From: Chondrinema litorale
Lineage (GTDB): Bacteria > Bacteroidota > Bacteroidia > Cytophagales > Flammeovirgaceae
Length of the DNA: 64,000 nt
Reading direction: 5' to 3'
Assembly (NCBI RefSeq): GCF_026250525.1
Contig: NZ_CP111043.1
Coordinates: forward strand, 1,289,421-1,353,420
Below, piece after piece: positions 12,742 to 64,000 of the stretch. The notes under the pieces are model-generated. The model worked only from the letters and a program-made list of their open reading frames with translations, made no database searches and was not told where the DNA came from. Position 1 is the first letter of the stretch. Each line of letters opens with the position of its first letter. A program made the position numbers and the translations under genes.

Positions 12742-12863
12742 TTTTCTAGTAAATTAAGCTGTTAAAAATTTGTCTATTCAGACTGCGATTAAGTTAGCAA
12801 AATTTCGAACTTTTTAAAAATGTAGCCACTTTACACCAAATTCGTACAGCTCAATTACTAGCA

Positions 12864-13655
12864 TCAGTTTTTTACTGGTAAACCCAATAAGTACAATTTT
12901 TTAGACTTGCCTTTTATTACACCTTTTTCCCAAGTATAGTCCTCAGAATGAAGCCCTTCTAGCAAAACATCCATATCTTCTAATGTGTAAGTGCGACTGT
13001 TAGAAACAGCTCCATCCCAAGCAATAAAAATAGGCAGAAGTGGAATGAGGTAGGTAAAAACGATTTGCTTCCAATTCATCGGGCGAACCATGGGAGTTAT
13101 AAACAAAGTAGTAATAATATTTATCGGGATGGGTAACCACCACAGCCAAACCGGCGGAAAACTATTGTCGCTAATCTCAAACACACATATTGGTTGTCGG
13201 GCATCTTTGGCATCTTTTAAAATGCTTTTTGCCAGATCGGGTTTCATATGGTGCATGCTACAAATCATGGTTCTAATACCTTTATATTTTTCAGGTAAGT
13301 TTGTAGCATCGATGGGTTCTGTGAGGTAGGTAATGTCACTATCTCTTTGGCTGTTTATTTCTGTTGCAACATCTGTATTGGGGTACAAATCACTCAAATT
13401 CAGGCTAAGATCAGTTACTCCATGTTTCTCTTTTAGAATTTGAACTACCTCAGGCATTGGCCCGCCACCGCCAGAACACATATCTATTATTTTAGGAGAT
13501 TCACTATAGGGCAGTGTTTTGGCAATAAGTGAAGCCAATTCATCTGCCGAACCTAAAAGTTTATGAATGGCTACAATGTAGCGGGTCATGAGCATTCTGA
13601 GCCAATTGGGGAACCAAGACTGATCTTCAAATTCAAAAAGGTGTATTCTTTTCAT
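12864..13655 (-). CDS. putative SAM-dependent methyltransferase with C-terminal membrane segment
   Basis: Gly-rich motif I-like DMCSGGGGP. Hydrophobic C-terminus. Assignment is weak. Confidence 0.35.
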   Translation of the reverse strand: MKRIHLFEFEDQSWFPNWLRMLMTRYIVAIHKLLGSADELASLIAKTLPYSESPKIIDMCSGGGGPMPEVVQILKEKHGVTDLSLNLSDLYPNTDVATEINSQRDSDITYLTEPIDATNLPEKYKGIRTMICSMHHMKPDLAKSILKDAKDARQPICVFEISDNSFPPVWLWWLPIPINIITTLFITPMVRPMNWKQIVFTYLIPLLPIFIAWDGAVSNSRTYTLEDMDVLLEGLHSEDYTWEKGVIKGKSKKLYLLGLPVKN

Positions 13656-30854: not shown

Positions 30855-30971
30855 TTTTTTCAGTTAACAGGTGGTTACAGTTAGCAGTATTTCATTTACT
30901 GTTACTAGAGAGCAATTATCAGTCATCGTATTCTGACAACTGATAACTGTTGACTGTTCTCTGAATATTGA

Positions 30972-33029: not shown

Positions 33030-33081
33030 ATCTTTTAGAAATTAAATTGTAATTCAGTTTTATATAAATGTGTTTTTAAAT

Positions 33082-33735
33082 TCAATTTGATGTGTGATAG
33101 GCTTCTACCACATAGCAGTTTTTATCTTCTTTGCGCATCAGTACCAATGCCTGATCACCTTTATTAAGCGGAGTACCGTCGTGTGTTACCACATAAACTG
33201 TTTGGGCTATGCCATCTAGTTTTACTTCTGCCAATCCCATATTTTCACCATCAGCCGTACTTCTCAAAGTACAAACTTTGCCAACTACCTTTACATCATC
33301 TGGTTTGTTGATGTGCTTAAACATTTGCACAAAAGGCATACAAGCAACTTTGGTTAACAACAAACTCACTATAATGAGTGGGATAAATAATATTGCAGCT
33401 ACGCCCCAAGAGCTGTTTGCTAGGTAATAATTACTTAAAACAGAACCTACCCAAAGAAACAGTGCAAAAAAGCTTATCAGAATCATGATAGGGATTTCAC
33501 CTATATTGAAAAAGTAAAGCAGATTGTTGACTGCACTTCCTCCTTCTGCTGATACATCTGCGTCTGTGTCTACGTCTGCATCCATATCTATATCGGCATC
33601 CAAGTCTACGTCAACATCAAAACTGCTTAGATCAAGTACACCTACAAATGTGCCCAACCAGTAAAATGAAACCAATATCATTAAAAATGTATAAGGCAAG
33701 TTTACAGGCTCCAAAGCATAACTTAGAAATTCCAT
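33082..33735 (-). CDS. NfeD/YqiJ-like membrane protein (flotillin operon partner)
   Basis: TM helices, an acidic DVDVDLDADIDMDADVDTDADV linker, more TM helices, and a C-terminal OB-fold-like beta segment. 217 aa. Directly upstream of the flotillin gene. Confidence 0.6.
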   Translation of the reverse strand: MEFLSYALEPVNLPYTFLMILVSFYWLGTFVGVLDLSSFDVDVDLDADIDMDADVDTDADVSAEGGSAVNNLLYFFNIGEIPIMILISFFALFLWVGSVLSNYYLANSSWGVAAILFIPLIIVSLLLTKVACMPFVQMFKHINKPDDVKVVGKVCTLRSTADGENMGLAEVKLDGIAQTVYVVTHDGTPLNKGDQALVLMRKEDKNCYVVEAYHTSN

Positions 33736-41800: not shown

Positions 41801-42216
41801 GAAATCAGGTTTGGAACCATACTCGATTCTTAATTCTTGGCAGTGGTGATGCCATTCCTACATCTAAGGAAATACTCAACCGATGGACGCCAGAGAATAA
41901 CCAGTCAGACATTCCGGGCTTTAGTGCAACGAGTAACTCAAGAGCCAACTCAAATCAATGGATAGAAGATGGTAGTTTTATCAGAATTGCCAATGTTACT
42001 TTAGGCTATACCATTCCTGAAACGGTATTAAAAAACACGTTGAATAGAGCTAGGTTTTACATCAGTGTTCAAAACTTAGGTTTAATTACCAATTATTCTA
42101 GTTACGACCCAGAGCTTTCTACTACGCCACTTGGTTCAGACACGCAACAAGGTATTGACAACAGCACTTACCCAGCAGTTAGAACCTTTACTGTAGGCAC
42201 TAAAATCTCTCTTTAA
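38887..42216 (+). CDS. susC: SusC/RagA-family TonB-dependent outer membrane transporter with N-terminal STN signalling domain
   Basis: 1109 aa. CarbopepD-like region (GTITSSEDGEGLPGVNVILKGT), TonB box (EEIVVVGYGVQDK), C-terminal beta-barrel ending in Leu. Adjacent SusD. Confidence 0.9.
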   Translation: MKNEILYLTKMLSKLFLYGLLLQTVFYSVILASEGTAQVKNVKEVDVIVNADISTLNAFFKDIERQTLYKFAYSDQNLRHDKIKGKLQSGERNFYEVLRELSKINKLKFKQVNNSISVDAEKPDEKEDDFYELLQEIDISGTITSSEDGEGLPGVNVILKGTSQGAVSDINGNYKIKVPSTNSVLVFSFVGFNSQEITVGNQSVIDVALSPDIRSLEEIVVVGYGVQDKSDLTGSVASINSEDFEQQPLIRTENALKGRTAGVTVQTPSGAPGASMKIRIRGFNSINGNNNPLYVIDGFIGADISTLNPNDIASMDVLKDASATAIYGSRGSNGVVIITTKSGKKGQLKIDFDAFYSADKISRKLDLLNAEEYMNVVNARNRDLNLNDVFTQSEIDSVASTGGTNWLDEILRTGATQNYQLALSGGTDKTRFYISGSMSDQEGIIKNSYYKRYGIRANLSSELTKKIDVDFNIYANHTFARNNYTYDGRGTALGAAHVFPPNIAVIDEATQGYTVSPGSYGPIAGNPVYQVTERLFDEKKWNTWSKLQLNYEIIEGLKFSVMGGVNGVFTHSPTFKRFQPGADESTSEAIQTDNFYYRLQNTNILNYAKKLGSNHKFDISAIYEQQITKSEGNYAYATGLTTNALTYYRLQLGANQQVSSGYSDETLQSFLGRVNYTFKDRYLFTASFRADGSSKFGEGNKYGYFPSAALAWRLSDEPFLNTVDFISDLKIRTSVGKVGSQAISPYQTLTTLALNQNYPFNNTSMSVGVGPGTPSNPDLKWETTTQYNVGIDYGILGGKVNGTIDYYHKETNDLLLNVPVPRYAGGGSVLKNIGSVENKGFEFLVNWSTIDHANFKLNTSFNLSINRNKILSLGEDSVLYIGNFILKPGEPISQFYGLTYEGTWKENEADEAAEFYQVPGDPRYRDVNGDKVIGNEDMSILGSPLPDFNWGWNTSIEYKNFDLNVLINGTQGNQVWNHTRFLILGSGDAIPTSKEILNRWTPENNQSDIPGFSATSNSRANSNQWIEDGSFIRIANVTLGYTIPETVLKNTLNRARFYISVQNLGLITNYSSYDPELSTTPLGSDTQQGIDNSTYPAVRTFTVGTKISL

Positions 42217-42236
42217 ATGATTTAACCGAAATTATC

Positions 42237-43742
42237 ATGCTTTATAAAAATATGAAAATAACTTCCATTACAACGATTTTGCTCATTCTGGCAATGGTTT
42301 TTTCTTGTCAAGATTTGGAAGAAGAGGCCAAAGGAACATTAATTAGCGATTCATTTTTTTCATCCTTATCCGATTTAGATGCAGGTGTAACCGCCACTTA
42401 CTCCGAAGTAATCTCTGGAGCATGGGGAGGTATTGCATCCAGAGATATTTGGGCACCATTAATGGGTGCTGATGATCTTACCACTTTACCCACGCAATCT
42501 GGTTGGTCGCAATACGATCGATTTGCAGTAGAACCACTCAGTGGTATTGTTTCCATTTTCTGGGGGCAACATTATAAGGTTATCTACTCAGCCAACAATG
42601 TAATTGAAAACTATGAGAAAGTAGTTGCCGAAGAAGATGCCATTCTATCTAGAGTTGCTCAGGTGAGGTTTTTACGAGCATTTTCTTACTTCTGGTTGGT
42701 AAGACTTTTTGGCGATGTACCCATCACAACCACCACATTAGATATGGAAATTACCAGAGCGCCCAAAGAAGAAGTTTATGCTTTAATAGAAGAAGACCTT
42801 TTGTTTGCCGAACAACATTTACCAGAAGCATGGCCCGGCGAGCCCGGTCGTGTTACAGTTTGGGCAGCAAAATCTTTACTTTCTCAAGTGTATTTAACGA
42901 TGGCAGGCTGGCCACTAAAAGATGAATCTAAATATGCATTGGCAGCTCAAAAAGCAGAAGAAGTAATAAACAATTCTTCGCATTATCTACTACCCAACTT
43001 CGAAGATGTATGGCTTATGTCTAATGAATTGAATGATGAGATTGTTTGGGGGCTACAGTTTTGTCGTCTGGTAGATTGTGGCACCAATGCCAGAACTAGT
43101 ATCACCGCCACCACTATGGGCCCAAGTGAAGAAGGTGGTTGGGATCAAATCTTTTTCGAAGTTGGGTTCTTTAACGATTTTCCTGAAGGACCAAGAAAAG
43201 ATGTTACTTTCCACACCACATTTACAGATGGTACCGAATGGCAAAACAGCAATGCCAAACATCCTTTTGTGGGCAAATTTAGAGATGGGTCTGTACCAAG
43301 AGAAGACAACTATGAAAGTATGTACCTAACTGGTAGAAACTTGCAAATATTGAGATATTCAGAAGTATTGCTCACTTATGCTGAGGCAGCGGCCATGTCT
43401 TCTGGACCTAGTGAAAAAGCTTATGAGGCCGTAAACATGGTAAAAAGAAGGGCGAAAGGTTTGCCTATTGACACACCAGACCCATCTGTTGACTTGGAGC
43501 CGGGCTTGTCTAACACTGAGTTTAGAGATGCCGTATTGCAAGAAAAAGCTTGGGAGCTAGCTGCTGAATACACCAGATGGTTTGATCTTGTAAGAACCGA
43601 AAAAGTAAAAGAAGCTAACCAGAATAAAGCCAATGGCGATCTAGCACCACTTGGCGATATTACCGAAGAAGATTATCTAATGCCGATTCCAGCTGTGGAG
43701 TTACAACTCAACCCCAATTTGACACAAAATATCGGTTATTAG
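42237..43742 (+). CDS. susD: SusD/RagB-family nutrient-binding outer membrane lipoprotein
   Basis: Lipoprotein signal (VFSCQD). TPR-like SusD signature. 501 aa. Directly after SusC. Confidence 0.85.
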   Translation: MLYKNMKITSITTILLILAMVFSCQDLEEEAKGTLISDSFFSSLSDLDAGVTATYSEVISGAWGGIASRDIWAPLMGADDLTTLPTQSGWSQYDRFAVEPLSGIVSIFWGQHYKVIYSANNVIENYEKVVAEEDAILSRVAQVRFLRAFSYFWLVRLFGDVPITTTTLDMEITRAPKEEVYALIEEDLLFAEQHLPEAWPGEPGRVTVWAAKSLLSQVYLTMAGWPLKDESKYALAAQKAEEVINNSSHYLLPNFEDVWLMSNELNDEIVWGLQFCRLVDCGTNARTSITATTMGPSEEGGWDQIFFEVGFFNDFPEGPRKDVTFHTTFTDGTEWQNSNAKHPFVGKFRDGSVPREDNYESMYLTGRNLQILRYSEVLLTYAEAAAMSSGPSEKAYEAVNMVKRRAKGLPIDTPDPSVDLEPGLSNTEFRDAVLQEKAWELAAEYTRWFDLVRTEKVKEANQNKANGDLAPLGDITEEDYLMPIPAVELQLNPNLTQNIGY

Positions 43743-43750
43743 TTGCTCAA

Positions 43751-43779
43751 TGGGGCAGGTAAACGCTTGCCCCAATTTT
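43751..43779 (+). terminator. possible hairpin terminator after SusD
   Basis: TGGGGCA...TGCCCCA stem followed by ATTTT. Modest T-run. Confidence 0.4.
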
Positions 43780-43938
43780 CAAACTTTCGGTTATGTTTTC
43801 ATCACAGTCCATCACAGAAAGTAGCATAACATTTCATAAATTGATATAGCCATACTTGCATTTTTTTAAAAGTGCATCGCGCTAATTTTTTCTAAAGCTT
43901 AAAAATCATTCAATATAATTTTTTGATAAACTATACTC

Positions 43939-45078
43939 ATGCGACTCAGATTAATTTTCGTTTTCAGCCTTATCCTTAGTTCAGCATCACTTTATGCCCA
44001 AGAGTTTAATGGTTTAAATGTGAATATGAATAACCTTTACCAACTGTCAGATGCTAAAACTAGATCGATTAGCCCAGAAAACTTTACTGGTGAAAAAGGC
44101 GGTGGAGGCAGAACAACCGTAGAAGATGGAAGTGCCGGAGCGGCTGCCAGAGATTTAGGTCTTGGTTGGAAAACAAATCCTTTTATTGTCATTCCTGCTG
44201 ATTCAGTTTTTGAACTGGCAAATATTGATGGCTCCGGAGCTATTCAACACATCTGGATGACTCCAACAGGTAACTGGCGATATTCGGTAATTAGAATCTA
44301 TTGGGATGATGAAAAAGAACCGTCTGTAGAAGTACCTGTAGGTGATTTTTTTGCAGCCGCTTACGAATACAAACAGATTAATTCTCTAGCAGTTTGTGTA
44401 AATCCCGGTAGTGCTTTTAATAGTTATTGGGTGATGCCTTTCAGAAAAAAGTGTCGCATTACAATGGAAAACATCGATACCAAACCCATGCGTTTGTATT
44501 ACCAAATCGATTATACCTTAACCGAAGTGCCAGAAGATGCCGCCTATTTCCACGCACAGTTCAGAAGAGTAAATCCTGTTAAATACAAAGATGTCTACAC
44601 CATTGTGGATAACATAAAAGGCAAAGGGCAGTATGTGGGAACTTACATGGCTTGGCAAAGCAACAACAATGGCTGGTGGGGCGAAGGTGAAATTAAATTT
44701 TTTATGGATGGTGATAAGCAATTCCCGACCATTTGCGGCACTGGTACCGAAGATTATTTTTGTGGCTCCTACGGATTTGCCATAAAAGGAAAATACATAG
44801 ATTATACAACTCCTTATGCCGGCTTCCATGTAATTAGACCTGAGGGAGATTTTACCTATAAATCGCAAACCAGATTTGGCATGTATCGCTGGCATGTAAC
44901 CGACCCTATCCGTTTTAACAAAGACCTAAAAGTAACCATGCAAGCATTGGGTTGGAGAAGCGATGGAAGATATTTGCCTTTAAAAGACGACATTGCTTCT
45001 GTGGCTTTTTGGTATCAGGCAGAGCCACATAATGCTTTCCCAGATTTTCCATCGAAAGATGAGCTAGAAATTAACTAG
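43939..45078 (+). CDS. DUF2961-family protein (glycoside hydrolase family 172-like), secreted
   Basis: Signal peptide. 379 aa. Family assignment is from memory of DUF2961 proteins commonly found in PULs. Confidence 0.45.
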   Translation: MRLRLIFVFSLILSSASLYAQEFNGLNVNMNNLYQLSDAKTRSISPENFTGEKGGGGRTTVEDGSAGAAARDLGLGWKTNPFIVIPADSVFELANIDGSGAIQHIWMTPTGNWRYSVIRIYWDDEKEPSVEVPVGDFFAAAYEYKQINSLAVCVNPGSAFNSYWVMPFRKKCRITMENIDTKPMRLYYQIDYTLTEVPEDAAYFHAQFRRVNPVKYKDVYTIVDNIKGKGQYVGTYMAWQSNNNGWWGEGEIKFFMDGDKQFPTICGTGTEDYFCGSYGFAIKGKYIDYTTPYAGFHVIRPEGDFTYKSQTRFGMYRWHVTDPIRFNKDLKVTMQALGWRSDGRYLPLKDDIASVAFWYQAEPHNAFPDFPSKDELEIN

Positions 45079-45162
45079 TAAAAATTTAAGCAATTTTTCG
45101 AAGAGAATTTTTAAGGAGTGAGAGGCAATTAACACCTCATTTCTTCTTAACTGAGATTCTTT

Positions 45163-47205
45163 TTGCCTTTACATTCTAATCAAATGAAAAAAAAGCATCA
45201 ATCAGTGATAAAAACGATATTTAAATCAACCTTTCTATTATTCCTTTTTGCCCTTAATAGCTGCAAAGAACAAACAGCTAGCATTATTCCAATCACCAAA
45301 GACATGGTGATTAACGAAACTGGTTATGGAAAACACATGGCTTGGTTTGACGAGCAAGAAGCAAATGAAACCCCTACTACCCGATGGGAAACTTATGGGG
45401 TAAAAACTTACTGGCCTGCCGGAATTATTATCGACTTTGGCAGCAAATATAAAATTAGAGAGATATTAATTTTTGATGGAGAAAAAGAGAGAAATATAAG
45501 TGGAGGTGAACTGCAAGTTTCTACTGGAGCTCCATTTAATTGGCAAGATTCTATAAAAGTACAGATGGATAATGCCAACTCATGGATAACATTAAACTGC
45601 AACTACGAAACCCGATATCTGCACTTAGAAAAACTAGCAACCAATTTCTATAATCAATCGGCAGAGTTTCCAGAAAACTGCGATTTGGCTATAAAAGAGG
45701 TAATTATTAAAGGATATCCATTGGAAGACACTTCACCAAAAGTCACTCAAACTACACCTGAAAATTTTGGAATTACAATGGATGAATTTATTGGGATGAA
45801 CTCTTATATCACCATTCCTGATAAACTACACGAAGCTATCGGACTGGTTAGAGAATACAGGCCTTGGGGATGGAATGGTGTAACCGATTTAGAAACGCCA
45901 ATTAATTGGGGAGACTTAAACGAAGTTGCCGGAAAAGAAAAATACCCTCAAGCAGATATGAATAACAGTGATTTGTATTATCAAAAAATGAAAGATATGG
46001 GAATTGAAGCTGTTCCTTGTATTCATCGACATGTAGATCAAGCAAATGAACATGAAAATATACCCAACTTTGGAGGCAACCCTAACGATCCGCTTTCATA
46101 TAAAATCATGGCTGATTATTCTTTCCAATACGTGGCTAGATATGGAAATCAAAAAGTATCAGAAAACCTACTTCGAACTACTGAAGCGAGCCCAAAGAAA
46201 AGCGGAATGGGATTCATCAATTATTTCGAAAACTGGAATGAGCCAAACAGATGGTGGGGAGATCCTGCCGGACATTTTACACCTTATCAGTTTGCAGCAT
46301 TTTGCAGTGCTTCTTACGATGGACACCTCAACCAAATGGGAGATGGTTTTGGAGTAAAAAATGCAGACCCAAATACCAAATATGTTTTTGGTGGATTGGC
46401 TGAACTTTCACTCAGCTATGTACAAGCGATGAAATTATGGGCAGATCATCATCGAGATGGCTCCTTCCCTGCTGATGTAATTAACCTACATCATTACTGC
46501 AATACAAGAGGCAAGCAACATTCTGGTGAAGAAGCACATGGCATAAGCCCAGAAGCAGATGGACTAAAAGAAAAACTCGAAAAGATAGTAGCATGGCGAG
46601 ATAAACACTTACCAGATAAAGAACTCTGGTTAAGCGAATTTGGCTGGGATACAGACGAAGGCAGCTATCAATCAGCAGCTTTTGGCCATGCACTTTACCC
46701 AGATAAAATCAGCATGTTTGAGATACAAGGGCAATGGTTAGTAAGAGAATATTTGATTGGTGCCGGTGCGGGAATTGATAGAATGATGATGTACCTCGCC
46801 AATGATCTAAAAAATTACCAACACGATGTTTTTGGTGAATGTGGCTTTGTTACAGTAGATGATGAACTCAAGCCTTCTTGGTATTATGTAAAAACATTAA
46901 AAGACGCGCTAAGTGGAATGACTTTTCAAGCTGAACAAAACTCAGACAATGAAAATGTATGGATTTATAAGTTTAGTAATCCTGAAACAAAAGAAGGAGC
47001 TTATGTGCTTTGGTGTCCAACTTCTGATGGAACAACTGTGAATAACTTTTCTCTTCCACTTAGTGATACAAGCCAAACAGCCACTGAGATCAAACTGGAA
47101 CATCAACAAGAAGCAGGTATCTCCACCGAATTAAACATTGAAAATAATACTGTAACAGTGAATGTAACTGAAAGACCTTTAATAATTTTAGTAGATCAAC
47201 TTTAA
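45163..47205 (+). CDS. lipoprotein with N-terminal discoidin (F5/8 type C)-like domain and clan GH-A TIM-barrel glycoside hydrolase domain
   Basis: Lipobox (ALNSCKE). ENWNEPN acid/base motif. SEFGWDTDEG nucleophile-like motif. 680 aa. Confidence 0.5.
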   Translation: MPLHSNQMKKKHQSVIKTIFKSTFLLFLFALNSCKEQTASIIPITKDMVINETGYGKHMAWFDEQEANETPTTRWETYGVKTYWPAGIIIDFGSKYKIREILIFDGEKERNISGGELQVSTGAPFNWQDSIKVQMDNANSWITLNCNYETRYLHLEKLATNFYNQSAEFPENCDLAIKEVIIKGYPLEDTSPKVTQTTPENFGITMDEFIGMNSYITIPDKLHEAIGLVREYRPWGWNGVTDLETPINWGDLNEVAGKEKYPQADMNNSDLYYQKMKDMGIEAVPCIHRHVDQANEHENIPNFGGNPNDPLSYKIMADYSFQYVARYGNQKVSENLLRTTEASPKKSGMGFINYFENWNEPNRWWGDPAGHFTPYQFAAFCSASYDGHLNQMGDGFGVKNADPNTKYVFGGLAELSLSYVQAMKLWADHHRDGSFPADVINLHHYCNTRGKQHSGEEAHGISPEADGLKEKLEKIVAWRDKHLPDKELWLSEFGWDTDEGSYQSAAFGHALYPDKISMFEIQGQWLVREYLIGAGAGIDRMMMYLANDLKNYQHDVFGECGFVTVDDELKPSWYYVKTLKDALSGMTFQAEQNSDNENVWIYKFSNPETKEGAYVLWCPTSDGTTVNNFSLPLSDTSQTATEIKLEHQQEAGISTELNIENNTVTVNVTERPLIILVDQL

Positions 47206-47214
47206 TCGTAAAAT

Positions 47215-48651
47215 ATGAAATATGGAAAATTAATCTTGCTATTTATCTCTGCTTGGTTAGCAGCCTGTTCGCCTCAGAGAGAGAAAATACCACAACCCAA
47301 TATTTTGTTTATCGCGGTGGATGATTTGAGGCCGGAACTGGGTTGCTATGGACAAAGTCACATTATTTCGCCCAATATCGACAAATTGGCCAACTCAGGA
47401 ATGGCATTTACAAATGCCTATTGCAACATTCCTGTATGTGGTGCTTCAAGGGCAAGTTTACTAACTGGGATTCGCCCCACAGCAAACCGCTTTGTAGATT
47501 ACAATACTTGGGCTAACGAAGATGTTCCCGGAGCGATTAGTTTGCCGGCACTTTTCAAGCAAAATGGTTATCACACAATTTCCAACGGAAAGGTATTTCA
47601 TCATAAAGATGATTTAAAAGACAGTTGGACAGAGGCACCTTGGAATCCGGCAGAAACGAGTAGTTATATGAACTACCAGACACAGCTTAACCAAGATATT
47701 TTTAGTGATGGCACACAAAGAGGTTTTCCTTACGAAGCAGGTGATGTGGCTGACACAGCCTATTTTGACGGAAAAATTGCATCAAAAACCATTGCTGATC
47801 TTAAAAGACTCAAAGAAGAAGGCAAGCCATTTTTTGTGGCTACGGGTTTCTTAAAACCACATTTGCCATTTAATGCTCCTAAAAAATATTGGGATTTATA
47901 TCCTGAGGAGAATATTCAATTACCAGACAATTATTATCCGCCACAAAATGCACCTAAAGCGGCTATTCATAATTTTGGGGAATTGAGATCGTATTACAGC
48001 ATTCCTAAAAAGGGACCTGTGGCAGATAGTACAGCATTAAACTTAATTAGGGGTTATTATGCTTGTGTGAGTTATGTGGATGTTCAAATTGGTCTCGTGT
48101 TGGATGCTTTAGATGAATTAGGCTTAGCCGAAAATACCATTGTGGTACTTTGGGGCGACCACGGTTGGCAATTGGGCGAACATAGTATTTGGTGTAAACA
48201 TGCCAATTTTAAAACCTCACTCAATGCACCTTTAATAATAAGAGCACCTGGTTATAATGATGAACACAGATCAAAAGCTTTGGTGGAGTTTATAGACATT
48301 TACCCAACTTTATGTGAACTATCTGGACTTGAAAAGCCTACACAGCTACATGGTAAAAGTTTTGTGCCATTGCTCGAAAATCCAGATCAAGCATGGAAAG
48401 AGAAAGTGTATTCCAGATTTATAAAAGGTGAATCTATTATTACAGATAGGTATTTGTATACAGAATGGATTAACCAGCAAGATTCTATTTATGCGAGTAT
48501 GTTGTATGATCACCAAACTGACCCAGATGAAAACAAGAATATTGTTGGTGCTGATGGCATAAAAGACACTGTACAAAGCTTGCATAATCAATTACACCAA
48601 CACATCGAAACTGATAGAACCTATATAAATGAAAGCCAGCAAGGTGGTTAG
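47215..48651 (+). CDS. sulfatase (S1 formylglycine-dependent family), lipoprotein
   Basis: Lipobox (LAACSP). Sulfatase signature CGASRASLLTG, with Ala in place of the usual Pro. Metal-binding Asp residues. GDHGW motif. Confidence 0.85.
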   Translation: MKYGKLILLFISAWLAACSPQREKIPQPNILFIAVDDLRPELGCYGQSHIISPNIDKLANSGMAFTNAYCNIPVCGASRASLLTGIRPTANRFVDYNTWANEDVPGAISLPALFKQNGYHTISNGKVFHHKDDLKDSWTEAPWNPAETSSYMNYQTQLNQDIFSDGTQRGFPYEAGDVADTAYFDGKIASKTIADLKRLKEEGKPFFVATGFLKPHLPFNAPKKYWDLYPEENIQLPDNYYPPQNAPKAAIHNFGELRSYYSIPKKGPVADSTALNLIRGYYACVSYVDVQIGLVLDALDELGLAENTIVVLWGDHGWQLGEHSIWCKHANFKTSLNAPLIIRAPGYNDEHRSKALVEFIDIYPTLCELSGLEKPTQLHGKSFVPLLENPDQAWKEKVYSRFIKGESIITDRYLYTEWINQQDSIYASMLYDHQTDPDENKNIVGADGIKDTVQSLHNQLHQHIETDRTYINESQQGG

Positions 48652-56769: not shown

Positions 56770-58074
56770 ATGGAAAATATTAAGGATATTAATGTTTTGA
56801 AAAACTTTTTTTTGAAAATATTTACCCGAAATTACGTAGAAAAAAAGGACTATTATAGTAGGTTCTTTGGTGTATTTGCCGTTTTTACTCTTATCAGTAT
56901 TGCAGCGCAATGTTATTCTGGTTATTCAGAATTAAGCTTTTTTGAAGCTAATTTGGCATTTTTAAAGCTCCCTCATCCTTTTTACTTTGCTCTACTAACT
57001 ACAGTTCTATTTGAAATATTCAAGTCCATAGTAACCTTAAAGTTTTTTCACGAATTTTTGGGATATCCTAAATCATTTAATCTCTTTTTTTTATTATTAT
57101 CTATTACATGTATAGGTGGCTCTATCTGGTTTAGTATGCATGGTATTGAAAGAAAAACAGTAAAGAATTTCTCTCCTCCCCCAATAGATGAAAAAACGAA
57201 CAATACAGATCAAATATTCAAAAACAATTTAGCTCAAATTGATAATACCATTAAAGATATTCAATCCCGCTACACCTATCAAGGAACAGTTTATATACCA
57301 AAGTCTGGCAATAAATGGCATTCAACTGATCAAGTATCTATTGATCGAGAAAAACTAAATAAACTGGAAACTCAAAAGTCAGAACTCATTAGTGAACATA
57401 CCAAACAAAGAGCTACTCTTATAAAAGAGTTTGAATCCAGTTTAAACTCTTATAATAATAAGCTTTTAGGAGCTTTACAAGAAAACAGATATAATGTGAT
57501 ATTCTCGGAAAGTATCTACATCATATGTATGATATTTAATTGTATTTTTTCCTTTAAATCAGCATTGGAATATAGTAGTCAATCAAGTAACAACAATCAA
57601 GCACCACCTCCCAATCTTAAAGAAAAAACAAAGCAAAAAGGAGTTAATCTCAATCAAAACACCCTTGAAAAACATCAAATGAATGGCAGTCCATTCAATG
57701 ATAGCAATCTAAAGATTTTTAGGAATGAGGTTGAAAGCCAAAACAATGAAAATATGCCTTTAGGTAATGTTACTGAGACAGTAACACAGTTCGAGAAATA
57801 TACAGAATTAGGACTTACTAAAGCCCCAGAAGGATACGAACCACGAAAATGTAAATGTTGTGGTCAACCTTTTTTTGCCAATGTAGTTAATGAATCCTCT
57901 AATAAAAAAATATACTGTTCAAAAGAATGTGCAGACAAGAAAAGAAAGGAACATACCTATAAAAAAAGAGAGGAAAGAAAATTGGATAAATTAAAGCTTG
58001 TGGAAAGCAGTTTAGACTCTGCTCAGCAATGTATTTTATGGAAAAAAACTGGCACTGACAATGAAGAAAATTAA
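56770..58074 (+). CDS. membrane protein with four TM helices, coiled coil and C-terminal CxxC...CxxxC zinc-ribbon
   Basis: Hydrophobic segments. C-terminal PRKCKCCGQPF...CSKECADKKRKEH. Confidence 0.4.
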   Translation: MENIKDINVLKNFFLKIFTRNYVEKKDYYSRFFGVFAVFTLISIAAQCYSGYSELSFFEANLAFLKLPHPFYFALLTTVLFEIFKSIVTLKFFHEFLGYPKSFNLFFLLLSITCIGGSIWFSMHGIERKTVKNFSPPPIDEKTNNTDQIFKNNLAQIDNTIKDIQSRYTYQGTVYIPKSGNKWHSTDQVSIDREKLNKLETQKSELISEHTKQRATLIKEFESSLNSYNNKLLGALQENRYNVIFSESIYIICMIFNCIFSFKSALEYSSQSSNNNQAPPPNLKEKTKQKGVNLNQNTLEKHQMNGSPFNDSNLKIFRNEVESQNNENMPLGNVTETVTQFEKYTELGLTKAPEGYEPRKCKCCGQPFFANVVNESSNKKIYCSKECADKKRKEHTYKKREERKLDKLKLVESSLDSAQQCILWKKTGTDNEEN

Positions 58075-58102
58075 ACCAAATAGCAACTAGACAATTACCA
58101 TT

Positions 58103-58537
58103 ATGGAAAAAGTAATACATAAAGTCATTGAGTCTGAAAAACCGATAAGGCTCTTACATAAGCATATTAAAGCCTACAATAAAGATAAGTCACTTGGTCT
58201 TCAAATTAGAGAACAACACACAAAAACTGCTGAGACTATTTTTAAAATTGCCATCAAGAAAAATGTGAACTTTTCTAACCCATTACACACCAGTTTAGTG
58301 GAACTGGGGCAGGAAAGATATGTATGTGGGTATTTTAAAGACAATGGTGCATCTATCGCTTCACAATTAAATATCCATGTAAAAAGCTTAGATAGTCATA
58401 TAGAACGGCTTGCAATAGCAGGTATATTAACCGCTTATAAAGTAACTCTAAACGGTGGAAATATCAGAAGAAAAGGGAATCATAAAGAAACCCTTTTTGC
58501 CATCAACAGTCAATTTTTTAACCTAAGCAATCAATAG
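58103..58537 (+). CDS. hypothetical protein
   Basis: 144-aa ORF. Confidence 0.35.
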   Translation: MEKVIHKVIESEKPIRLLHKHIKAYNKDKSLGLQIREQHTKTAETIFKIAIKKNVNFSNPLHTSLVELGQERYVCGYFKDNGASIASQLNIHVKSLDSHIERLAIAGILTAYKVTLNGGNIRRKGNHKETLFAINSQFFNLSNQ

Positions 58538-58807: not shown

Positions 58808-59089
58808 GTGAGAAGTAGGAAGAGTTTTGAGCATAAAAGAAAAATTTCAAAAATGATGAATGGTTCAAATTTGATGAATAGTGCAGAAAAAGAGCGAAAG
58901 TACAGGTGCATTGTAAAAGTATCAGGTGAAAAGTTTGTAAAATATAATACCAGTAACCTGCTTGATTTTACTGATTTTTTAGATAAAAAGTATCCAAATT
59001 GGCGCTGGTTCAATGTCTACAACAAAAAAAACAGAAAGCAAATAGGCAGTTTTACAAAAAAGCGAAGACCTAATCAAAAAAATATTTAA
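58808..59089 (+). CDS. small basic protein, hypothetical
   Basis: 93-aa Lys/Arg-rich ORF starting immediately after the iteron array. Confidence 0.25.
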   Translation: MRSRKSFEHKRKISKMMNGSNLMNSAEKERKYRCIVKVSGEKFVKYNTSNLLDFTDFLDKKYPNWRWFNVYNKKNRKQIGSFTKKRRPNQKNI

Positions 59090-59214
59090 GACGCAGGAAA
59101 AGAGTATCATAACTCTTTATTGCTTGGCAACTGCAACTAAAAATAAGTTGCAACAATTCAAAAGGGGGGACATTTATTAGTCCTCCCATCATTTAAACCA
59201 ATTCAGTAATTACC

Positions 59215-59805
59215 ATGCAATTAAAATACACAAATAGAGAAGTATCAGAAATGAGTATTTCTGATTTAATGAAAGTTATTAATAACCCATCAGTGGTTGA
59301 AATCTCTAGAAAGAATGCTAGAGATAGTTTGGATGCATTGATCAAAGAGCACTATATCAAACAAAATGCTTTTTCACCAATAAATACTCTTTCGAAGTGT
59401 CAAAAGAACTCTTTGATAAAACTGTGGGTAGTATTTAAAAATTCAAAAAAAACTGAGGGTTGGGTAGAAAGGTATTACAGCATAGATTATCCTCATGAAA
59501 GAGAGCTATTTAAAGACCAAGAACTCATTGAAACCCGACTAAAAAATGAAAACATTCATTTTGTAAAAAACTTCTATGGTTATAATAAACCTCTTACTGG
59601 CTATAAAAAGTTATATGATTTAGCAATGAATTACTACAGACAAGGCAGAGTTTTGCACATGAAATTCTACTTAAATACAGTGTATGAACAACAGGAAAAT
59701 GGAGAGTTCATGCCTAAAGAATTATATGGTTGGTCGATTGACAATTCATATAAACAGTATAATCAAAATAATGACTCAACTGGAAAAATTATTACAATGA
59801 TTTAA
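59215..59805 (+). CDS. hypothetical protein
   Basis: 196-aa ORF. Confidence 0.35.
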   Translation: MQLKYTNREVSEMSISDLMKVINNPSVVEISRKNARDSLDALIKEHYIKQNAFSPINTLSKCQKNSLIKLWVVFKNSKKTEGWVERYYSIDYPHERELFKDQELIETRLKNENIHFVKNFYGYNKPLTGYKKLYDLAMNYYRQGRVLHMKFYLNTVYEQQENGEFMPKELYGWSIDNSYKQYNQNNDSTGKIITMI

Positions 59806-59970
59806 TTATGATTTTATAAAACTTATTCTTTTCACTCAGAATAAACACCTTAAATTAGGCATCTATATATCATTTACTTGATATTATAATTGAATGATCT
59901 TAATATATTCGAATTGCAAATTATGTATTTTTAATTTAATGATTTTATCTACAATTATTTGTATAATTGA

Positions 59971-60444
59971 GTGTTGATTTTAAAAAAAAAGAAGCTGAAA
60001 ATGAAGTTAGATAACTTTAAGCGATATCAAAATGGACTAACTTTAGATACTTTATTTCCAAAATTAATGGGTGTTTGCGCATGTGGTTGTGCAAATAAAC
60101 TAGAAGGAAGGCGAAAAAAATGGTATAGTGATGAATGTAGAAAAAAAGCACTTTTTGAATTTTATATTATAAAAGGAGATCCTACTTTTATAAGAAAACT
60201 ACTTTTTGAAATTGATAAAGGATTTTGTAGAAGTTGTGGCTCTTCCGATGAAGAATGGGAAGCAGATCATATTATACCAGTAACATTGGGAGGTGGAGCC
60301 TGTGGACTAGACAACTACCAAACATTGTGTAAACATTGCCATATTGAAAAATCAAAATTAGATACTATCCCAAATAGCTCTTATGTTTTTACATCCAGAT
60401 TTAATATCATTTGTAATTCTTATTATCGAATTAGGGCAGATTGA
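59971..60444 (+). CDS. HNH endonuclease domain protein
   Basis: CRSCGSSDEEWEADHIIPVTLGGGACGLDNYQTLCKHCHIEKSKLD HNH motif with paired Cys ligands. The C-terminal tail probably over-extends into the convergent gene. Confidence 0.65.
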   Translation: MLILKKKKLKMKLDNFKRYQNGLTLDTLFPKLMGVCACGCANKLEGRRKKWYSDECRKKALFEFYIIKGDPTFIRKLLFEIDKGFCRSCGSSDEEWEADHIIPVTLGGGACGLDNYQTLCKHCHIEKSKLDTIPNSSYVFTSRFNIICNSYYRIRAD

Positions 60445-61041
60445 AGTAAAATCTCTAAAAACATCATAAGATATACAAAGCTTGTTATCTAGCTGTTCAT
60501 TATCAAATACAATATTTTCAATTGCATACATGTATAGAATTGCAGAAATATATTTAGATGTATCTTCTGGTAATTCTGTACTTTGACTAATATGAACTTT
60601 ACCTATTCCGAATTTATTTATTCCTTTATTGTTTACTTTCCTTATTATGATATCTGGATTAACACTTACATCAACTCCTTCAATTATTATATTCTTTTTA
60701 TGAATATCTAAAGCAGAATAAATTAAGTTTTTATTTATTGCATTCGTGTTCAACACAAATTCTAAGGCCTCAATTGAATTCCTTTTTTCATTTTCTAAGA
60801 AATCATTATTAATACCTTTATTTCTTAGATAATCTAAACATTTTAAAATAATCTCAGCATTAAAGTTACTTTGTAGATAAGCATTAATTGCTTTTCTTGC
60901 ATCAGAATAATAAGTATAAGTAAAACGGTTTTCATCTGGATTTTTGAATGTTTCAAGAATTTTACGTTGACGTGTAGAATTGGCCGTCAAAAATTCGCCT
61001 AGCTTATTTATAGAAATTTTTGGTGTGTTCTTATTAGTCAT
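60358..61041 (-). CDS. hypothetical protein
   Basis: 227-aa ORF convergent with the HNH gene. Confidence 0.4.
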   Translation of the reverse strand: MTNKNTPKISINKLGEFLTANSTRQRKILETFKNPDENRFTYTYYSDARKAINAYLQSNFNAEIILKCLDYLRNKGINNDFLENEKRNSIEALEFVLNTNAINKNLIYSALDIHKKNIIIEGVDVSVNPDIIIRKVNNKGINKFGIGKVHISQSTELPEDTSKYISAILYMYAIENIVFDNEQLDNKLCISYDVFRDFTSICPNSIIRITNDIKSGCKNIRAIWDSI

Positions 61042-61261
61042 GATAATAAATTATTATAAATCAGAAAAAACTACTATTATTTGATCAAAGTCATAAATTA
61101 ATCAAATAATAGTAAATATATTAATTATTCAAATAATTGACTCCTAATAAATTATTGATTCAAAACATCAAATATTAGATGATTCTCTTAATAAAATCTA
61201 TAGAAAGTAGTAGGGTAAATTATATATATTTAGTCAACCAATTAAATAACAAACTAATCAG

Positions 61262-61771
61262 ATGAAGGATCTGCTAAATAAGATATCGTCATATAACATT
61301 TTCAATTATCTGTTCCCTGGTGTCTTATATGCAGTCATTATAAGTAAAATAACAAAAATTAATATCTTACAAGAAGATATACTTGTTGGAGCTTTTCTTT
61401 ATTATTTCATAGGTCTTGTCATAAGCCGTATTGGTTCTTTGTTAATTGAACCATTTTTAAAGAAAATCAAATTCATAAAGTTTGCTGAATATTCTGACTT
61501 TATTCAAGCATCTAAAGATGATCCAAAAATTGAGGTTTTATCAGAATCAAATAACACTTATAGAACTCTGACTTCATTATTTTTTTTGATTATTATTTCC
61601 AAAGTCTTTTTATTGTTATCAAATAAATACCAATGGCTTATAGACTATAAATGGTATTTTATCTCCAGTAGCCTTTTAATAATGTTTGCTTTTTCTTATA
61701 GAAAACAGACTATTTATATCACAAAAAGAATTAAAAATTCATTGAAAAGTAAAAACAGAATTATATCATGA
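61262..61771 (+). CDS. integral membrane protein (four TM helices), hypothetical
   Basis: Hydrophobic helices. 4-nt overlap (ATGA) with the downstream MBL gene. Confidence 0.4.
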   Translation: MKDLLNKISSYNIFNYLFPGVLYAVIISKITKINILQEDILVGAFLYYFIGLVISRIGSLLIEPFLKKIKFIKFAEYSDFIQASKDDPKIEVLSESNNTYRTLTSLFFLIIISKVFLLLSNKYQWLIDYKWYFISSSLLIMFAFSYRKQTIYITKRIKNSLKSKNRIIS

Positions 61772-62643
61772 GCAATCATTGTGAAGTTGTCTTTTGGGAT
61801 GTGCAACATGGTCATATGACATATATTAAAACTCCTAATAACAGACATATTGTAATAGATTTGGGAACTGGGGATTATTCAAAAGGAATTGAGAATTTTA
61901 GCCCATTACTTCATCTAAAAAATAAATACAAAGTAAATCAGCTTGATTACGTTATCATTACTCATCCCCACCTAGATCATATTGACGACATTCTCAATTT
62001 TGATGCTTTGAAACCAAGAGTATTACTTAGGCCAAATCATTTAAGTAATGATGAAGTAATGGAGAGAGTACTTGAAAGAGACAGAGCAAAATTTGAAAAA
62101 TATTGTGAAATAAATAATAGATACAACCAACCAATTGATCCAAGTTCAATTGATGATAAATCAAATCCTAGTAATTGGGGTGGGCTTGAAATAAAAACCT
62201 TTATTCCAAAATCTTGTAATCATAACAATTTTAATAATCATAGTATAATAAGTGTTTTTGAATTTGCAAATATAAAAGTTGTAATACCTGGAGATAATGA
62301 AAAATGCTCTTTTGACGAGCTTATGTCTAAAAATGATTTTGTTGAAGCTATATCAAATGCTGATATTTTACTAGCTCCTCATCATGGACGTATGTCAGGA
62401 TTTAATAACGACTTTGTTAAGGCTGTAAATCCTAGAATAACTGTTGTATCAGACTCCAAGTTTTGTGACACAAGTGCTAATGCAAATTATACTGCAAAAA
62501 GTAGAGGATGGACTGTACACAATAAAAGTAATTTCACTTCAAAACAAAGAAAATGTTTAACAACAGCTTCTGATGGAGAAGTGGTAGCACATTTTGGATA
62601 TCAACCAAGTGGCAGGAGTTATCTAAAGGTAATGATTAAATAA
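61768..62643 (+). CDS. metallo-beta-lactamase-fold hydrolase (ComEC C-terminal-domain-like)
   Basis: HPHLDHIDD (HxHxDH) motif. N-terminal VVFWDVQHGHMTYIKTP..IVIDLG resembles the ComEC MBL domain. Downstream His and Asp ligands (LAPHHGR). Confidence 0.55.
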   Translation: MSNHCEVVFWDVQHGHMTYIKTPNNRHIVIDLGTGDYSKGIENFSPLLHLKNKYKVNQLDYVIITHPHLDHIDDILNFDALKPRVLLRPNHLSNDEVMERVLERDRAKFEKYCEINNRYNQPIDPSSIDDKSNPSNWGGLEIKTFIPKSCNHNNFNNHSIISVFEFANIKVVIPGDNEKCSFDELMSKNDFVEAISNADILLAPHHGRMSGFNNDFVKAVNPRITVVSDSKFCDTSANANYTAKSRGWTVHNKSNFTSKQRKCLTTASDGEVVAHFGYQPSGRSYLKVMIK

Positions 62644-62892
62644 GAAAATTGAACTTGCTGTTATATGATAATCATAATTTTTGATTTCCCCTTTTTGTGA
62701 ATGGATCAAAAAGTATTTTTGAAATTCTTTTACATTAAAAAAGTAAATAATGATAATTTCACCAAATTAAATATATCGTTTAATTTTAACAGGGTATTAG
62801 CATTACGTCTATTATATTCATTATTTGAATATTAAGCTATTCTGATGCTTAATAAATTTTTTTCTTTTTTAGATATTTAATAGAAATATATA

Positions 62893-64000
62893 TGCATGTT
62901 AAAAAACTAAAAATAGTAAAGTTATATGGTTATATTGATAAAGTAATTGACTTCAATCATGACTTAACTATACTTGTCGGAATTAATGGGGCAGGAAAGA
63001 CTAGTATATTAAATATTGTTAATTGGATTCTTAGGCCATCTCTACCAAATTTATGTGTGACCGACTTTAAGTCACTCACACTATTTTTTGAATACCAAAA
63101 AGAAAATTACGAAATAAATTGCATCCATTATAAATCAACTTTTCGCTATAAATTGAAGGTAGGGAGCAGTCAAATGCATCCTCTTATAGTGAAATTGAGA
63201 GAACATCCCTCAAATATTGAAAATAATGAAAATCTTAAACAACAAGTACTTCAAAGTTATTTGCATCTAGGTCCAGATGATAAGGAGAAAAAAACTTGGC
63301 AAGTTATTTCTAAATTCCCAAAACCAACAGTTGTAGGTTTAGATAGACATTTATATGCAGAAGAGTCTGAACAAGTATTTGTTGAAGACAGCTTGAAAGG
63401 AGATGTCATTAGAAGAAAACAAAAAGTGTCTATTTCTCCACTTGATCGTGTAAAGGAAATAATAAATAAAGAATATAGAAAACAAAAAAACTCAATTCTT
63501 AACCTTACAAATTCTCTTAAAAATCACTTAATGCTTTCGGCTTTTAATGGAAGTATTACTGAAGAATCCTTTTCAAGTGGAATTAGATACAAACTCACAT
63601 ATCAACAAATAGAAAATGCTGAAAATCGAGTACATGACTATTTTGAGAATTTTGAAGAGACAATCTTTGGAGATTCGGAAAAGGAAACAGTAAAAAAATA
63701 TTTTTCTGATTTAAAAGCTATTACTACAGAATATCAAAATAACCCTGAAAAAGACATTGTAAAACTCCTATACGGATTAAATGCAAACCAATTTATAAAA
63801 GTCAGAAAACTACTTCGTGAATTCGAAAAATTTGAAGAAAAAGTTTCAAAAACAACTGCACAAATTCAAAACTATTTACAAACTTTAAATTATTTTTTTA
63901 AAGATTCTGGTAAGGAAATAGCGTTTAAAGAAGATACTTTTGAATTAACTTTTAATACAATTAATAGAAAAGGAGAGATAGAAATCAAATATAAAGATAT
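62893..64000 (+). CDS. SMC/RecF/OLD-like ABC ATPase, 5' partial (runs off the window)
   Basis: N-terminal KLKIVKLYGYIDKVIDFNHDLTILVGINGAGKTSILN P-loop of the RecF/SMC/OLD ABC class. Long alpha-helical region follows. No stop before the window end. Confidence 0.6.

What the first reader, a model, noticed from the sequence alone, without database searches (positions are those of the whole stretch)
62893..64000. SMC/OLD-like ABC ATPase truncated at the window end, a possible first gene of a defense system
Seen: the N-terminus is KLKIVKLYGYID..DLTILVGINGAGKTSIL, followed by more than 300 aa of helical sequence without a Walker B yet. This matches the long-armed ABC ATPases of the Lamassu LmuB, Gabija GajA, PARIS AriA, OLD and AbiL-like classes.

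It sits about 250 nt after the MBL gene. Its partner, likely a nuclease or effector, would lie beyond the window.
Basis: partly seen in the sequence, partly recalled or inferred. Interest (0 to 1): 0.5.

Follow-up and report, generated by a model that had tools for sequence, protein, structure and literature searches.

The report
PARIS anti-phage system, ariA gene
The gene cut off by the window end is the ATPase sensor (AriA) of a two-gene PARIS anti-phage system; its nuclease partner (AriB) lies just beyond the window, so this is an ordinary though very divergent member of a known defence family.

Summary
An ORF starts at ATG 62892 (not 62893) and runs off the window end. Its 369 codons are identical to the start of a 452-aa Chondrinema litorale "AAA family ATPase" (UZR95309.1). 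The missing 83 aa carry the ABC signature, Walker B, D-loop and H-loop.

It is not a long-armed SMC, RecF, RecN or SbcC. The full protein's best defence-model hit and best solved-structure hits are AriA of PARIS. This holds by sequence profile (E 1e-22) and by predicted fold (top 14 hits, E about 1e-16).

In all 15 related loci with downstream DNA, a roughly 280-aa DUF4435 gene follows within a few to about 100 nt. The same replicon of C. litorale encodes such a protein (UZR95310.1, the next accession). Its only PADLOC hit is AriB, and its predicted fold matches only AriB chains in the PDB.

The published detection rule for PARIS is met. The likely mechanism is borrowed from E. coli PARIS: an AriA hexamer holds AriB inactive, a phage protein releases it, and AriB cleaves tRNA.

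The locus lies in a low-GC defence islet, directly after a complete PDC-M48 candidate system.

This is a new, divergent member of a known kind, of low interest.

The parts
62892..64000 (+). 5' part of ariA (codons 1-369 of 452): the ABC-ATPase sensor/antitoxin subunit of a PARIS system. It covers the N-terminal ATPase lobe with Walker A (residues 30-37, nt 62979-63002), the helical insertion (about residues 183-339), and the first strands of the C-terminal lobe.
   Evidence: The translation is 100% identical to residues 1-369 of P0001 = UZR95309.1/WP_284685090.1. Pfam gives AAA_21 82.6 bits and AAA_15 64.8 bits for the full protein. The best PADLOC hit is AriA at 3.6e-30. The PDB profile search finds AriA at 1.1e-22. 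The top 14 Foldseek hits are all AriA chains.
62644..62891 (+). A 248-nt AT-rich intergenic region between the PDC-M48B (MBL-fold) gene and ariA; presumably it holds ariA's own promoter.
   Evidence: Gap taken from ORF coordinates. Sigma-70-like matches are not above the shuffle expectation (7 against 4.9 +/- 2.3) and no terminator-like site was found. One Bacteroidota-type TAnnTTTG match lies at 62714-62721, but the motif is not enriched in the window. The promoter assignment is inference only.

Best explanation
The truncated gene is ariA of a two-gene PARIS (phage anti-restriction-induced system) defence module in the chromosome of Chondrinema litorale (Bacteroidota, Cytophagales). AriA is a 452-aa ABC ATPase of the AAA_15/AAA_21 group. 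Its partner AriB is a 284-aa DUF4435/Toprim nuclease encoded immediately downstream, beyond the window. The mechanism is inferred by analogy with the E. coli B185 system. AriA would assemble into a hexameric scaffold that binds AriB monomers and keeps them inactive. ATP-dependent recognition of a phage protein would release AriB. AriB would then dimerise and cleave host tRNA, stopping translation and aborting the infection. What is shown here is the identity of the gene, the ATPase motifs, the existence and family of the partner, the conserved gene pairing, and the fold-level match of both proteins to solved AriA and AriB. What is inferred is adjacency in this genome (from consecutive accessions), complex formation, the trigger, the tRNA target, and anti-phage activity.
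For: (1) The window ORF equals residues 1-369 of P0001, a 452-aa protein with Walker A 30-37, LSSGE 373-377, Walker B IFIIDE 396-401, SLH 405-407 and THSP 432-435.
(2) AriA is the best PADLOC family for the full protein (PDLC04164 3.6e-30, PDLC02980 9.6e-23, and PDLC02979 3.2e-21 over residues 12-438).
(3) A profile of 20 homologues finds AriA chains 8ux9_B and 8v45_A as the best PDB sequences (E 1.1e-22). The next hit is retron PtuA at 1e-13. The aligned block includes the IDEPE-SLHI-WQED segment.
(4) The AF2 model of P0001 has AriA chains as its top 14 Foldseek hits (E 6.5e-17 to 1e-15, TM 0.49-0.65); PtuA follows at 2e-12.
(5) Partner: in L001 and L058 a 284-aa DUF4435 gene starts 2 and 9 nt after the ATPase stop. 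All 15 related loci with a full-length ATPase and downstream DNA carry a DUF4435 ORF directly downstream.
(6) C. litorale encodes P0204 (DUF4435, 284 aa) on a contig of the same length (4,938,441 bp), with the next accession numbers: UZR95309.1 then UZR95310.1, and WP_284685090.1 then WP_284685091.1.
(7) P0204 scores 59.2 bits on DUF4435 (cut-off 27) and its only PADLOC hit is AriB at 2.1e-19.
(8) The AF2 model of P0204 (pLDDT 89.6) has only two significant PDB matches, both AriB chains: 8ux9_A (E 2e-6, TM 0.53) and 8v46_D. The next hit is at E 0.3.
(9) The acidic residues E31, D32, D82, D84 and E107 are invariant in 18 partner homologues. They sit at the ends of the predicted strands 27-30 and 77-81 and after strand 98-100, as expected for a Toprim fold. 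In E. coli AriB the equivalent set is E26, D30, D88, E90 and E122 (PMC11464382).
(10) The published detection rule is met: AAA_15 >=32 or AAA_21 >=27 bits, plus an adjacent DUF4435 >=27 bits (PMC9122126).
(11) Context: a complete PDC-M48 candidate defence pair lies directly upstream and local GC is low.
Against: Divergence from the only characterised PARIS is large. Structure-based identity is 17-19% for AriA and 11-12% for AriB. A sequence profile of the partner family does not detect PDB AriB at all. The PADLOC AriA and AriB models that match have nearly the lengths of the Pfam AAA_15, AAA_21 and DUF4435 models, so they may be generic domain models rather than models specific to PARIS; that reading is mine. 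The downstream DNA of this genome could not be read, so adjacency rests on accession order and on synteny in relatives. Nothing here tests complex formation, trigger, target or defence. The AriA model is only moderately confident (pLDDT 73.9, with residues 151-180 and 218-227 below 50).
Confidence: 0.88

Rival explanations
1. It belongs to a different AAA_15/21 ATPase plus Toprim-like nuclease system of the OLD-like group (AbiL, MADS3-4 type, or an undescribed class). The partner would then cut DNA or another substrate rather than tRNA, and the ATPase would not act as a hexameric sequestering scaffold.
For: The ATPase also matches PtuA (1.7e-22), AbiLi (1.1e-16), Old (1.6e-15) and mad3 (4.5e-15) models. 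The partner is only 11-12% identical to solved AriB and is invisible to a sequence profile search of the PDB. Burman et al. place AbiL and MADS3-4 in the same ATPase+Toprim group (PMC11464382).
Against: AriA is the top hit by PADLOC, by PDB sequence profile and by fold, ahead of PtuA by several orders of magnitude. The partner hits only DUF4435/AriB; no RloB, Toprim_Old, HNH or other family was reported for it at E <= 0.01. The partner's whole-length fold match is to AriB only; GajA and OLD C-terminal regions score E > 0.3.
Confidence: 0.08
2. The ATPase and the upstream MBL-fold pair (PDC-M48A/B) form one larger composite system, so the ATPase is not the first gene of its own module.
For: All the genes are on the same strand, with only a 248-nt gap and no terminator-like site between the MBL gene and the ATPase gene. 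The MBL protein has a weak LmuA-model hit at 5.6e-08.
Against: In the two closest loci examined, the ATPase+DUF4435 pair occurs without any MBL gene upstream. In L001 it sits between a 229-aa ORF whose sequence I read as PAPS-reductase-like (not tested with a family search) and histidine-biosynthesis-like genes. In L058 it follows Pfam-less hypothetical genes. PDC-M48A and B match their own two-gene models at nearly full length.
Confidence: 0.03
3. It is a housekeeping DNA-repair or chromosome-maintenance ABC ATPase (RecF, RecN, SbcC/Rad50 or SMC/MukB).
For: There are weak N-terminal P-loop matches to SMC_N, RecF, Rad50 and MukB models.
Against: All of these scores fall far below the curated cut-offs: RecF 19.5 against 172, Rad50 19.7 against 1087, SMC_N 26.9 against 40. 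The protein is 452 aa with a short helical insert. Its partner is a DUF4435 protein, not Mre11/SbcD or kleisin. Flanking genes differ between genomes, which points to a mobile two-gene cassette.
Confidence: 0.01

Closest known systems
PARIS (AriA/AriB) of E. coli B185 (P4-like satellite); structures 8ux9 and 8v45-8v49
   Same: It is a two-gene cassette with the ATPase first and a DUF4435/Toprim protein second, and the sizes are similar (452 and 284 aa against 464 and about 305 aa). The Walker A Lys (K36 against K39) and Walker B Glu (E401 against E393) correspond, as does the LSSGE signature and the IDEPE-SLHI-WQED block. The partner has the Toprim acidic set. The predicted folds of both proteins match the solved chains best (PMC11464382).
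   Different: Identity is very low: 17-19% for AriA and 11-12% for AriB in structural alignment. The host is a marine Cytophagales chromosome, not an enterobacterial P4 satellite hotspot. The trigger is unknown and need not be Ocr, and the tRNA target is unknown. The helical insertion regions are poorly modelled and may differ.
Septu / retron I-A PtuA-PtuB
   Same: PtuA is an AAA_15/21 ABC ATPase of similar size with a helical insertion. It gives the second-best structural and sequence hits.
   Different: The partner there is an HNH nuclease (PtuB), and in retrons an RT with msDNA. Here the partner is DUF4435, with no HNH gene adjacent in the related loci.
Gabija GajA and class 1 OLD nucleases (P2 Old, Ts OLD 6p74)
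   Same: They share the ABC ATPase plus Toprim logic; PARIS is counted as class 4 of the OLD-like systems (PMC11464382).
   Different: In GajA and OLD the ATPase and Toprim are fused in one polypeptide of about 530-690 aa, and Gabija adds a UvrD-like helicase (GajB). Here the ATPase ends at residue 452, right after the H-loop, and the Toprim-type domain is a separate protein.
AbiL (AbiLi/AbiLii)
   Same: It is a two-gene system with an AAA_15/21 ATPase plus a Toprim-related partner. The AbiLi model hits at 1.1e-16.
   Different: The AbiLii partner is of the RloB type (PF13707). The partner here matches DUF4435 only.

Membership tests
PARIS (AriA/AriB) | ATPase gene matching Pfam AAA_15 (>=32 bits) or AAA_21 (>=27 bits), the detection rule of Rousset et al. 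2022 (PMC9122126) | tested here: met
   The full-length protein P0001 scores 82.6 bits on AAA_21 and 64.8 bits on AAA_15. The window fragment alone falls below both cut-offs (24.9 and 17.7 bits), because the C-terminal lobe is missing.
PARIS (AriA/AriB) | DUF4435 (PF14491) gene of >=27 bits adjacent to the ATPase gene | tested here: met
   P0204 of the same C. litorale contig scores 59.2 bits. Adjacency in this genome is inferred from consecutive accessions (UZR95309.1 and UZR95310.1), because the DNA beyond the window could not be read. Adjacency was seen directly in 15 of 15 related loci.
PARIS (AriA/AriB) | Intact ABC-ATPase catalytic motifs; K39 (Walker A) and E393 (Walker B) are required in E. 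coli AriA | tested here: met
   GINGAGKT 30-37 (K36), IFIIDE 396-401 (E401), LSSGE 373-377, SLH 405-407 and THSP 432-435 are present, and most of these positions are invariant in 20 homologues.
PARIS (AriA/AriB) | Toprim acidic residues in AriB (E26, D30, D88, E90, E122 in E. coli) | tested here: met
   E31, D32, D82, D84 and E107 are invariant in 18 homologues and lie at the ends of the predicted beta strands. The residue-by-residue correspondence to the E. coli set is inferred, not aligned.
PARIS (AriA/AriB) | Folds of both subunits resemble solved AriA and AriB more than any other solved protein | tested here: met
   For AriA, the top 14 PDB hits are AriA chains (E about 1e-16, TM 0.49-0.65). 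For AriB, the only significant hits are 8ux9_A and 8v46_D (E 2e-6 and 6e-6, TM about 0.5).
PARIS (AriA/AriB) | An AriA hexamer sequestering up to three AriB; trigger-induced AriB release; tRNA cleavage; phage defence | not testable with these tools
   This needs biochemistry, cryo-EM and phage assays. It is known only for E. coli B185 (PMC11464382, PMC10802264, PMC12409363).
Gabija GajA / class 1 OLD | ATPase and Toprim domains fused in one polypeptide (plus a GajB helicase for Gabija) | tested here: not met
   The protein ends at residue 452, after the H-loop, with no Toprim domain. The downstream gene is DUF4435, not a UvrD helicase.
Septu PtuA | Adjacent HNH nuclease PtuB | tested here: not met
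   The downstream partner in relatives and in C. litorale is DUF4435. PtuA models score below AriA models.
AbiL | Partner of the RloB/AbiLii type | tested here: not met
   The Pfam and PADLOC scans of the partner give only DUF4435/AriB, with no RloB or AbiLii hit at E <= 0.01.
Lamassu LmuB / SMC proper | Long antiparallel coiled-coil arm with a hinge; LmuA effector (and LmuC) neighbours | tested here: not met
   The protein is 452 aa in all, with a helical insert of about 160 aa. LmuB is not among the best 25 PADLOC families. SMC_N scores 26.9 bits, below its cut-off of 40.
RecF / RecN / SbcC-Rad50 | Scores above the curated NCBIfam equivalog cut-offs, and housekeeping synteny | tested here: not met
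   RecF scores 19.5 bits against a cut-off of 172, and Rad50 at most 19.7 against at least 700; the matches cover the P-loop region only. Flanking genes vary between genomes.

The most novel reading that the evidence does not exclude
This AriA/AriB clade is widespread in Bacteroidota. Homologues at 50-66% identity occur in Flavobacteriales, Chitinophagaceae, Chryseobacterium and Pontibacter. Yet it shares only 11-19% identity with E. coli PARIS. It may therefore be a functionally distinct PARIS lineage that senses phage proteins other than Ocr-type anti-restriction proteins, and whose Toprim effector cuts a different tRNA set or another RNA. Burman et al. note that the trigger-binding pores of AriA are poorly conserved between clades, which leaves this open.
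Probability: 0.4. Interest if true: 0.35.

Novelty: new member of a known kind. Interest (0 to 1): 0.15.

Why it matters
It matters little beyond annotation. The gene deposited as "AAA family ATPase" and its neighbour "DUF4435 domain-containing protein" can be named ariA and ariB. The end of the window can be read as a small defence islet, with PDC-M48 followed by PARIS. The clade is a very distant, Bacteroidota-wide relative of the only characterised PARIS, and both AF2 models are usable. That makes it a reasonable choice for anyone comparing how different PARIS clades recognise triggers and pick tRNA targets. Nothing here challenges current understanding.

Tried and rejected
- Exact look-up of contigs encoding P0001 and P0204 found neither on record. 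The DNA downstream of the window could therefore not be read.
- A sequence-profile search of the partner family against the PDB did not find AriB. It gave only spurious hits to an F5/8 type C domain protein and to GH10. A fold search was needed instead.
- Family scans of the 369-aa window fragment alone were non-discriminating. Pfam scores were all below cut-off, and PtuA and AriA tied at about 1e-9 on the P-loop.
- The sigma-70 promoter and terminator scan of the intergenic region was no better than shuffles. The Bacteroidota -7 motif TAnnTTTG is not enriched in the window (73 found against 101 expected).
- There are no tRNA genes in the window, so no tRNA-linked integration site is visible.
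- A literature search for PDC-M48 found nothing.
- L014 looked like an exception to the pairing, with no tblastn hit. Its downstream ORF proved to be DUF4435 at 66.5 bits.
- Rejected readings: RecF/RecN/SbcC/SMC, Gabija, class 1 OLD, Septu, AbiL and Lamassu (see the membership tests).

Full report
**1. The observation**

The + strand carries an ATG at 62892-62894, one base before the coordinate given. The frame stays open to the last base of the window, giving 369 codons.

- The quoted N-terminus is present: MHVKKLKIVKLYGYIDKVIDFNHDLTILVGINGAGKTSIL, with Walker A GINGAGKT at residues 30-37.
- With the local composition (27% GC), a stop-free run of this length has a chance probability of about 1e-15.
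- The upstream MBL-fold gene ends at 62643, so the gap is 248 nt.

**2. Identity of the gene**

The 369 residues are identical to the first 369 of P0001. This is a 452-aa "AAA family ATPase" of Chondrinema litorale (UZR95309.1 / WP_284685090.1) on a 4.94-Mb contig. C. litorale belongs to Bacteroidota, Cytophagales, Flammeovirgaceae.

Only 83 residues lie beyond the window. They carry the rest of the ABC ATPase:

- the signature LSSGE at 373-377;
- Walker B IFIIDE at 396-401;
- the D-loop SLH at 405-407;
- the H-loop THSP at 432-435.

The full protein passes Pfam AAA_21 (82.6 bits) and AAA_15 (64.8 bits). It is not a long-armed SMC. The AF2 model shows an N-lobe with beta strands, a helical insertion at about residues 183-339, and a C-lobe. 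RecF, Rad50, SMC_N and MukB models touch only the P-loop and score far below their cut-offs.

**3. Which ABC ATPase**

The window fragment alone cannot discriminate. PtuA and AriA models tie at about 1e-9 on the first 50-60 residues. The full-length protein does discriminate.

| Test | AriA result | Next best |
|---|---|---|
| PADLOC models | 3.6e-30, 9.6e-23, 3.2e-21 (the last over residues 12-438) | PtuA 1.7e-22, AbiLi 1.1e-16, Old 1.6e-15 |
| Profile of 20 homologues (A1) against PDB sequences | AriA 8ux9_B / 8v45_A at 1.1e-22 | Retron PtuA at 1e-13 |
| AF2 model (pLDDT 73.9) against PDB folds | Top 14 hits all AriA chains, E 6.5e-17 to 1e-15, TM 0.49-0.65, 16-19% identity | PtuA chains from 2e-12 |

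**4. The partner**

- In the two closest loci read, a 284-aa DUF4435 gene starts 2 nt (L001, 66% identical ATPase) and 9 nt (L058, Niabella beijingensis) after the ATPase stop.
- tblastn over all fetched loci found this partner directly downstream in 14 of the 15 loci that hold a full-length ATPase relative plus downstream DNA.
- The apparent exception, L014, has a 279-aa downstream ORF that is DUF4435 at 66.5 bits. The pairing is therefore 15 of 15.

A database search with the L001 partner returned P0204, "DUF4435 domain-containing protein [Chondrinema litorale]", 284 aa, on a contig of the same length. Its accessions are the immediate successors of the ATPase's: UZR95310.1 after UZR95309.1, and WP_284685091.1 after WP_284685090.1. 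GenBank numbers the proteins of a genome record in order along the record; that is my own knowledge. So this is very probably the next CDS. I could not read the DNA itself.

**5. Is the partner AriB?**

- P0204 scores 59.2 bits on DUF4435 (cut-off 27). Its only PADLOC hit is AriB at 2.1e-19.
- A sequence profile of 18 homologues does not reach the solved AriB, which shows how divergent the clade is.
- The AF2 model (pLDDT 89.6, pTM 0.85) has exactly two significant matches in the PDB, both AriB chains: 8ux9_A (E 2e-6, TM 0.53/0.49) and 8v46_D (E 6e-6), over the full length at 11-12% identity. Everything else, including GajA and the OLD C-terminal region, is at E > 0.3.
- E31, D32, D82, D84 and E107 are invariant in the family. 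They sit at the ends of the predicted strands 27-30 and 77-81 and after strand 98-100, which is the Toprim arrangement.
- The E. coli AriB catalytic set is E26, D30, D88, E90 and E122, and the E26A mutant is inactive (PMC11464382). The one-to-one mapping between the two sets is my inference.

**6. Mechanism**

The mechanism is taken from the E. coli B185 system and is not tested here.

- Six AriA form a propeller-shaped scaffold that holds three AriB.
- ATP-dependent binding of a phage protein (T7 Ocr) releases AriB.
[quoted passage not shown] This blocks translation (PMC11464382, PMC10802264, PMC12409363).

The Walker A Lys and Walker B Glu needed for this in E. coli (K39, E393) have counterparts here (K36, E401). 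Burman et al. report 11 PARIS clades with co-evolving AriA and AriB, and poorly conserved trigger-binding pores. Trigger and target in this clade may therefore differ.

**7. Membership**

The published operational rule for PARIS is met (PMC9122126). It requires AAA_15 >=32 or AAA_21 >=27 bits, plus an adjacent DUF4435 >=27 bits. The one caveat is that adjacency in this genome is inferred. The alternatives each fail a defining feature:

- Gabija and class 1 OLD require a fused Toprim; Gabija also has a helicase.
- Septu requires an HNH partner.
- AbiL requires an RloB-type partner.
- Lamassu and SMC require a long arm and LmuA.
- RecF, RecN and SbcC require scores above cut-off and housekeeping synteny.

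**8. Context**

- The two genes just upstream (61262-61771 and 61768-62643, overlapping by 4 nt) match the PADLOC candidate system PDC-M48 almost end to end: A at 2.9e-66 and B at 1.4e-153.
- An HNH endonuclease ORF lies at 59971-60444.
- GC falls from 0.32-0.39 at 48-53 kb to 0.25-0.28 over the last 5 kb.
- The rest of the window is ordinary Bacteroidota chromosome: a SusC/SusD pair, a sulfatase and a rhomboid.
- In relatives, the AriAB pair sits between unrelated genes. It therefore behaves as an independent mobile two-gene cassette and does not depend on the MBL pair.

**9. Verdict**

The specific answer is PARIS AriA. It is a new and very divergent member of a known kind that standard defence finders should call. 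Interest is low.

Noticed in passing
window 61262-62643 (+): ORFs 61262-61771 and 61768-62643: A complete two-gene candidate defence system, PDC-M48, lies directly upstream of ariA. The 169-aa protein matches PDC-M48A at 2.9e-66, and the 291-aa MBL-fold protein matches PDC-M48B at 1.4e-153 over 289 of 291 model positions. The two genes overlap by 4 nt. A full-text literature search found no paper that mentions PDC-M48.
   Followed up: partly
window 59000-64000: GC content drops to 0.25-0.28 here, against 0.32-0.39 at 48-53 kb. The stretch holds an HNH endonuclease ORF (59971-60444, HNH 5e-10), several ORFs with no Pfam or PADLOC match (59215-59805; 60358-61041 on the - strand), PDC-M48 and ariA. 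It looks like a small, horizontally acquired defence islet. No integrase was seen among the ORFs scanned in 54-64 kb, and no tRNA gene lies anywhere in the window.
   Followed up: partly
window 25935-33735 (-): A 1639-aa protein has an N-terminal DUF3686 domain ('ATPase involved in DNA repair', 3.1e-187), a DUF7902 domain and a C-terminal AAA domain. On the same strand it is preceded by a 685-aa ORF (no Pfam hit) and a 217-aa ORF (not scanned in Pfam). None of the three matches a PADLOC model. This may be an uncharacterised large ATPase operon.
   Followed up: partly
window 56770-58537 (+): A 434-aa ORF with no Pfam or PADLOC hit is followed by a 144-aa ORF with only a sub-threshold DUF4423 match. 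The pair lies at the edge of the low-GC stretch and its function is unknown.
   Followed up: no
window 38887-48651 (+): A polysaccharide-utilisation-type cluster: a SusC-like TonB-dependent receptor (38887-42216), a SusD-like protein (42237-43742), a protein with an F5/8-type-C-like domain (45163-47205) and a sulfatase (47215-48651). This is ordinary Bacteroidota chromosomal content and confirms the chromosomal setting.
   Followed up: no
L014 8917-13359 (Pedobacter sp. Leaf41): In this distant relative, the AriA/AriB pair is followed on the opposite strand by a 375-aa ORF (12232-13359) that I read by eye as resembling a tyrosine recombinase/integrase; no family search was run on it. If correct, it fits carriage of some PARIS cassettes on integrative elements.
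   Followed up: no
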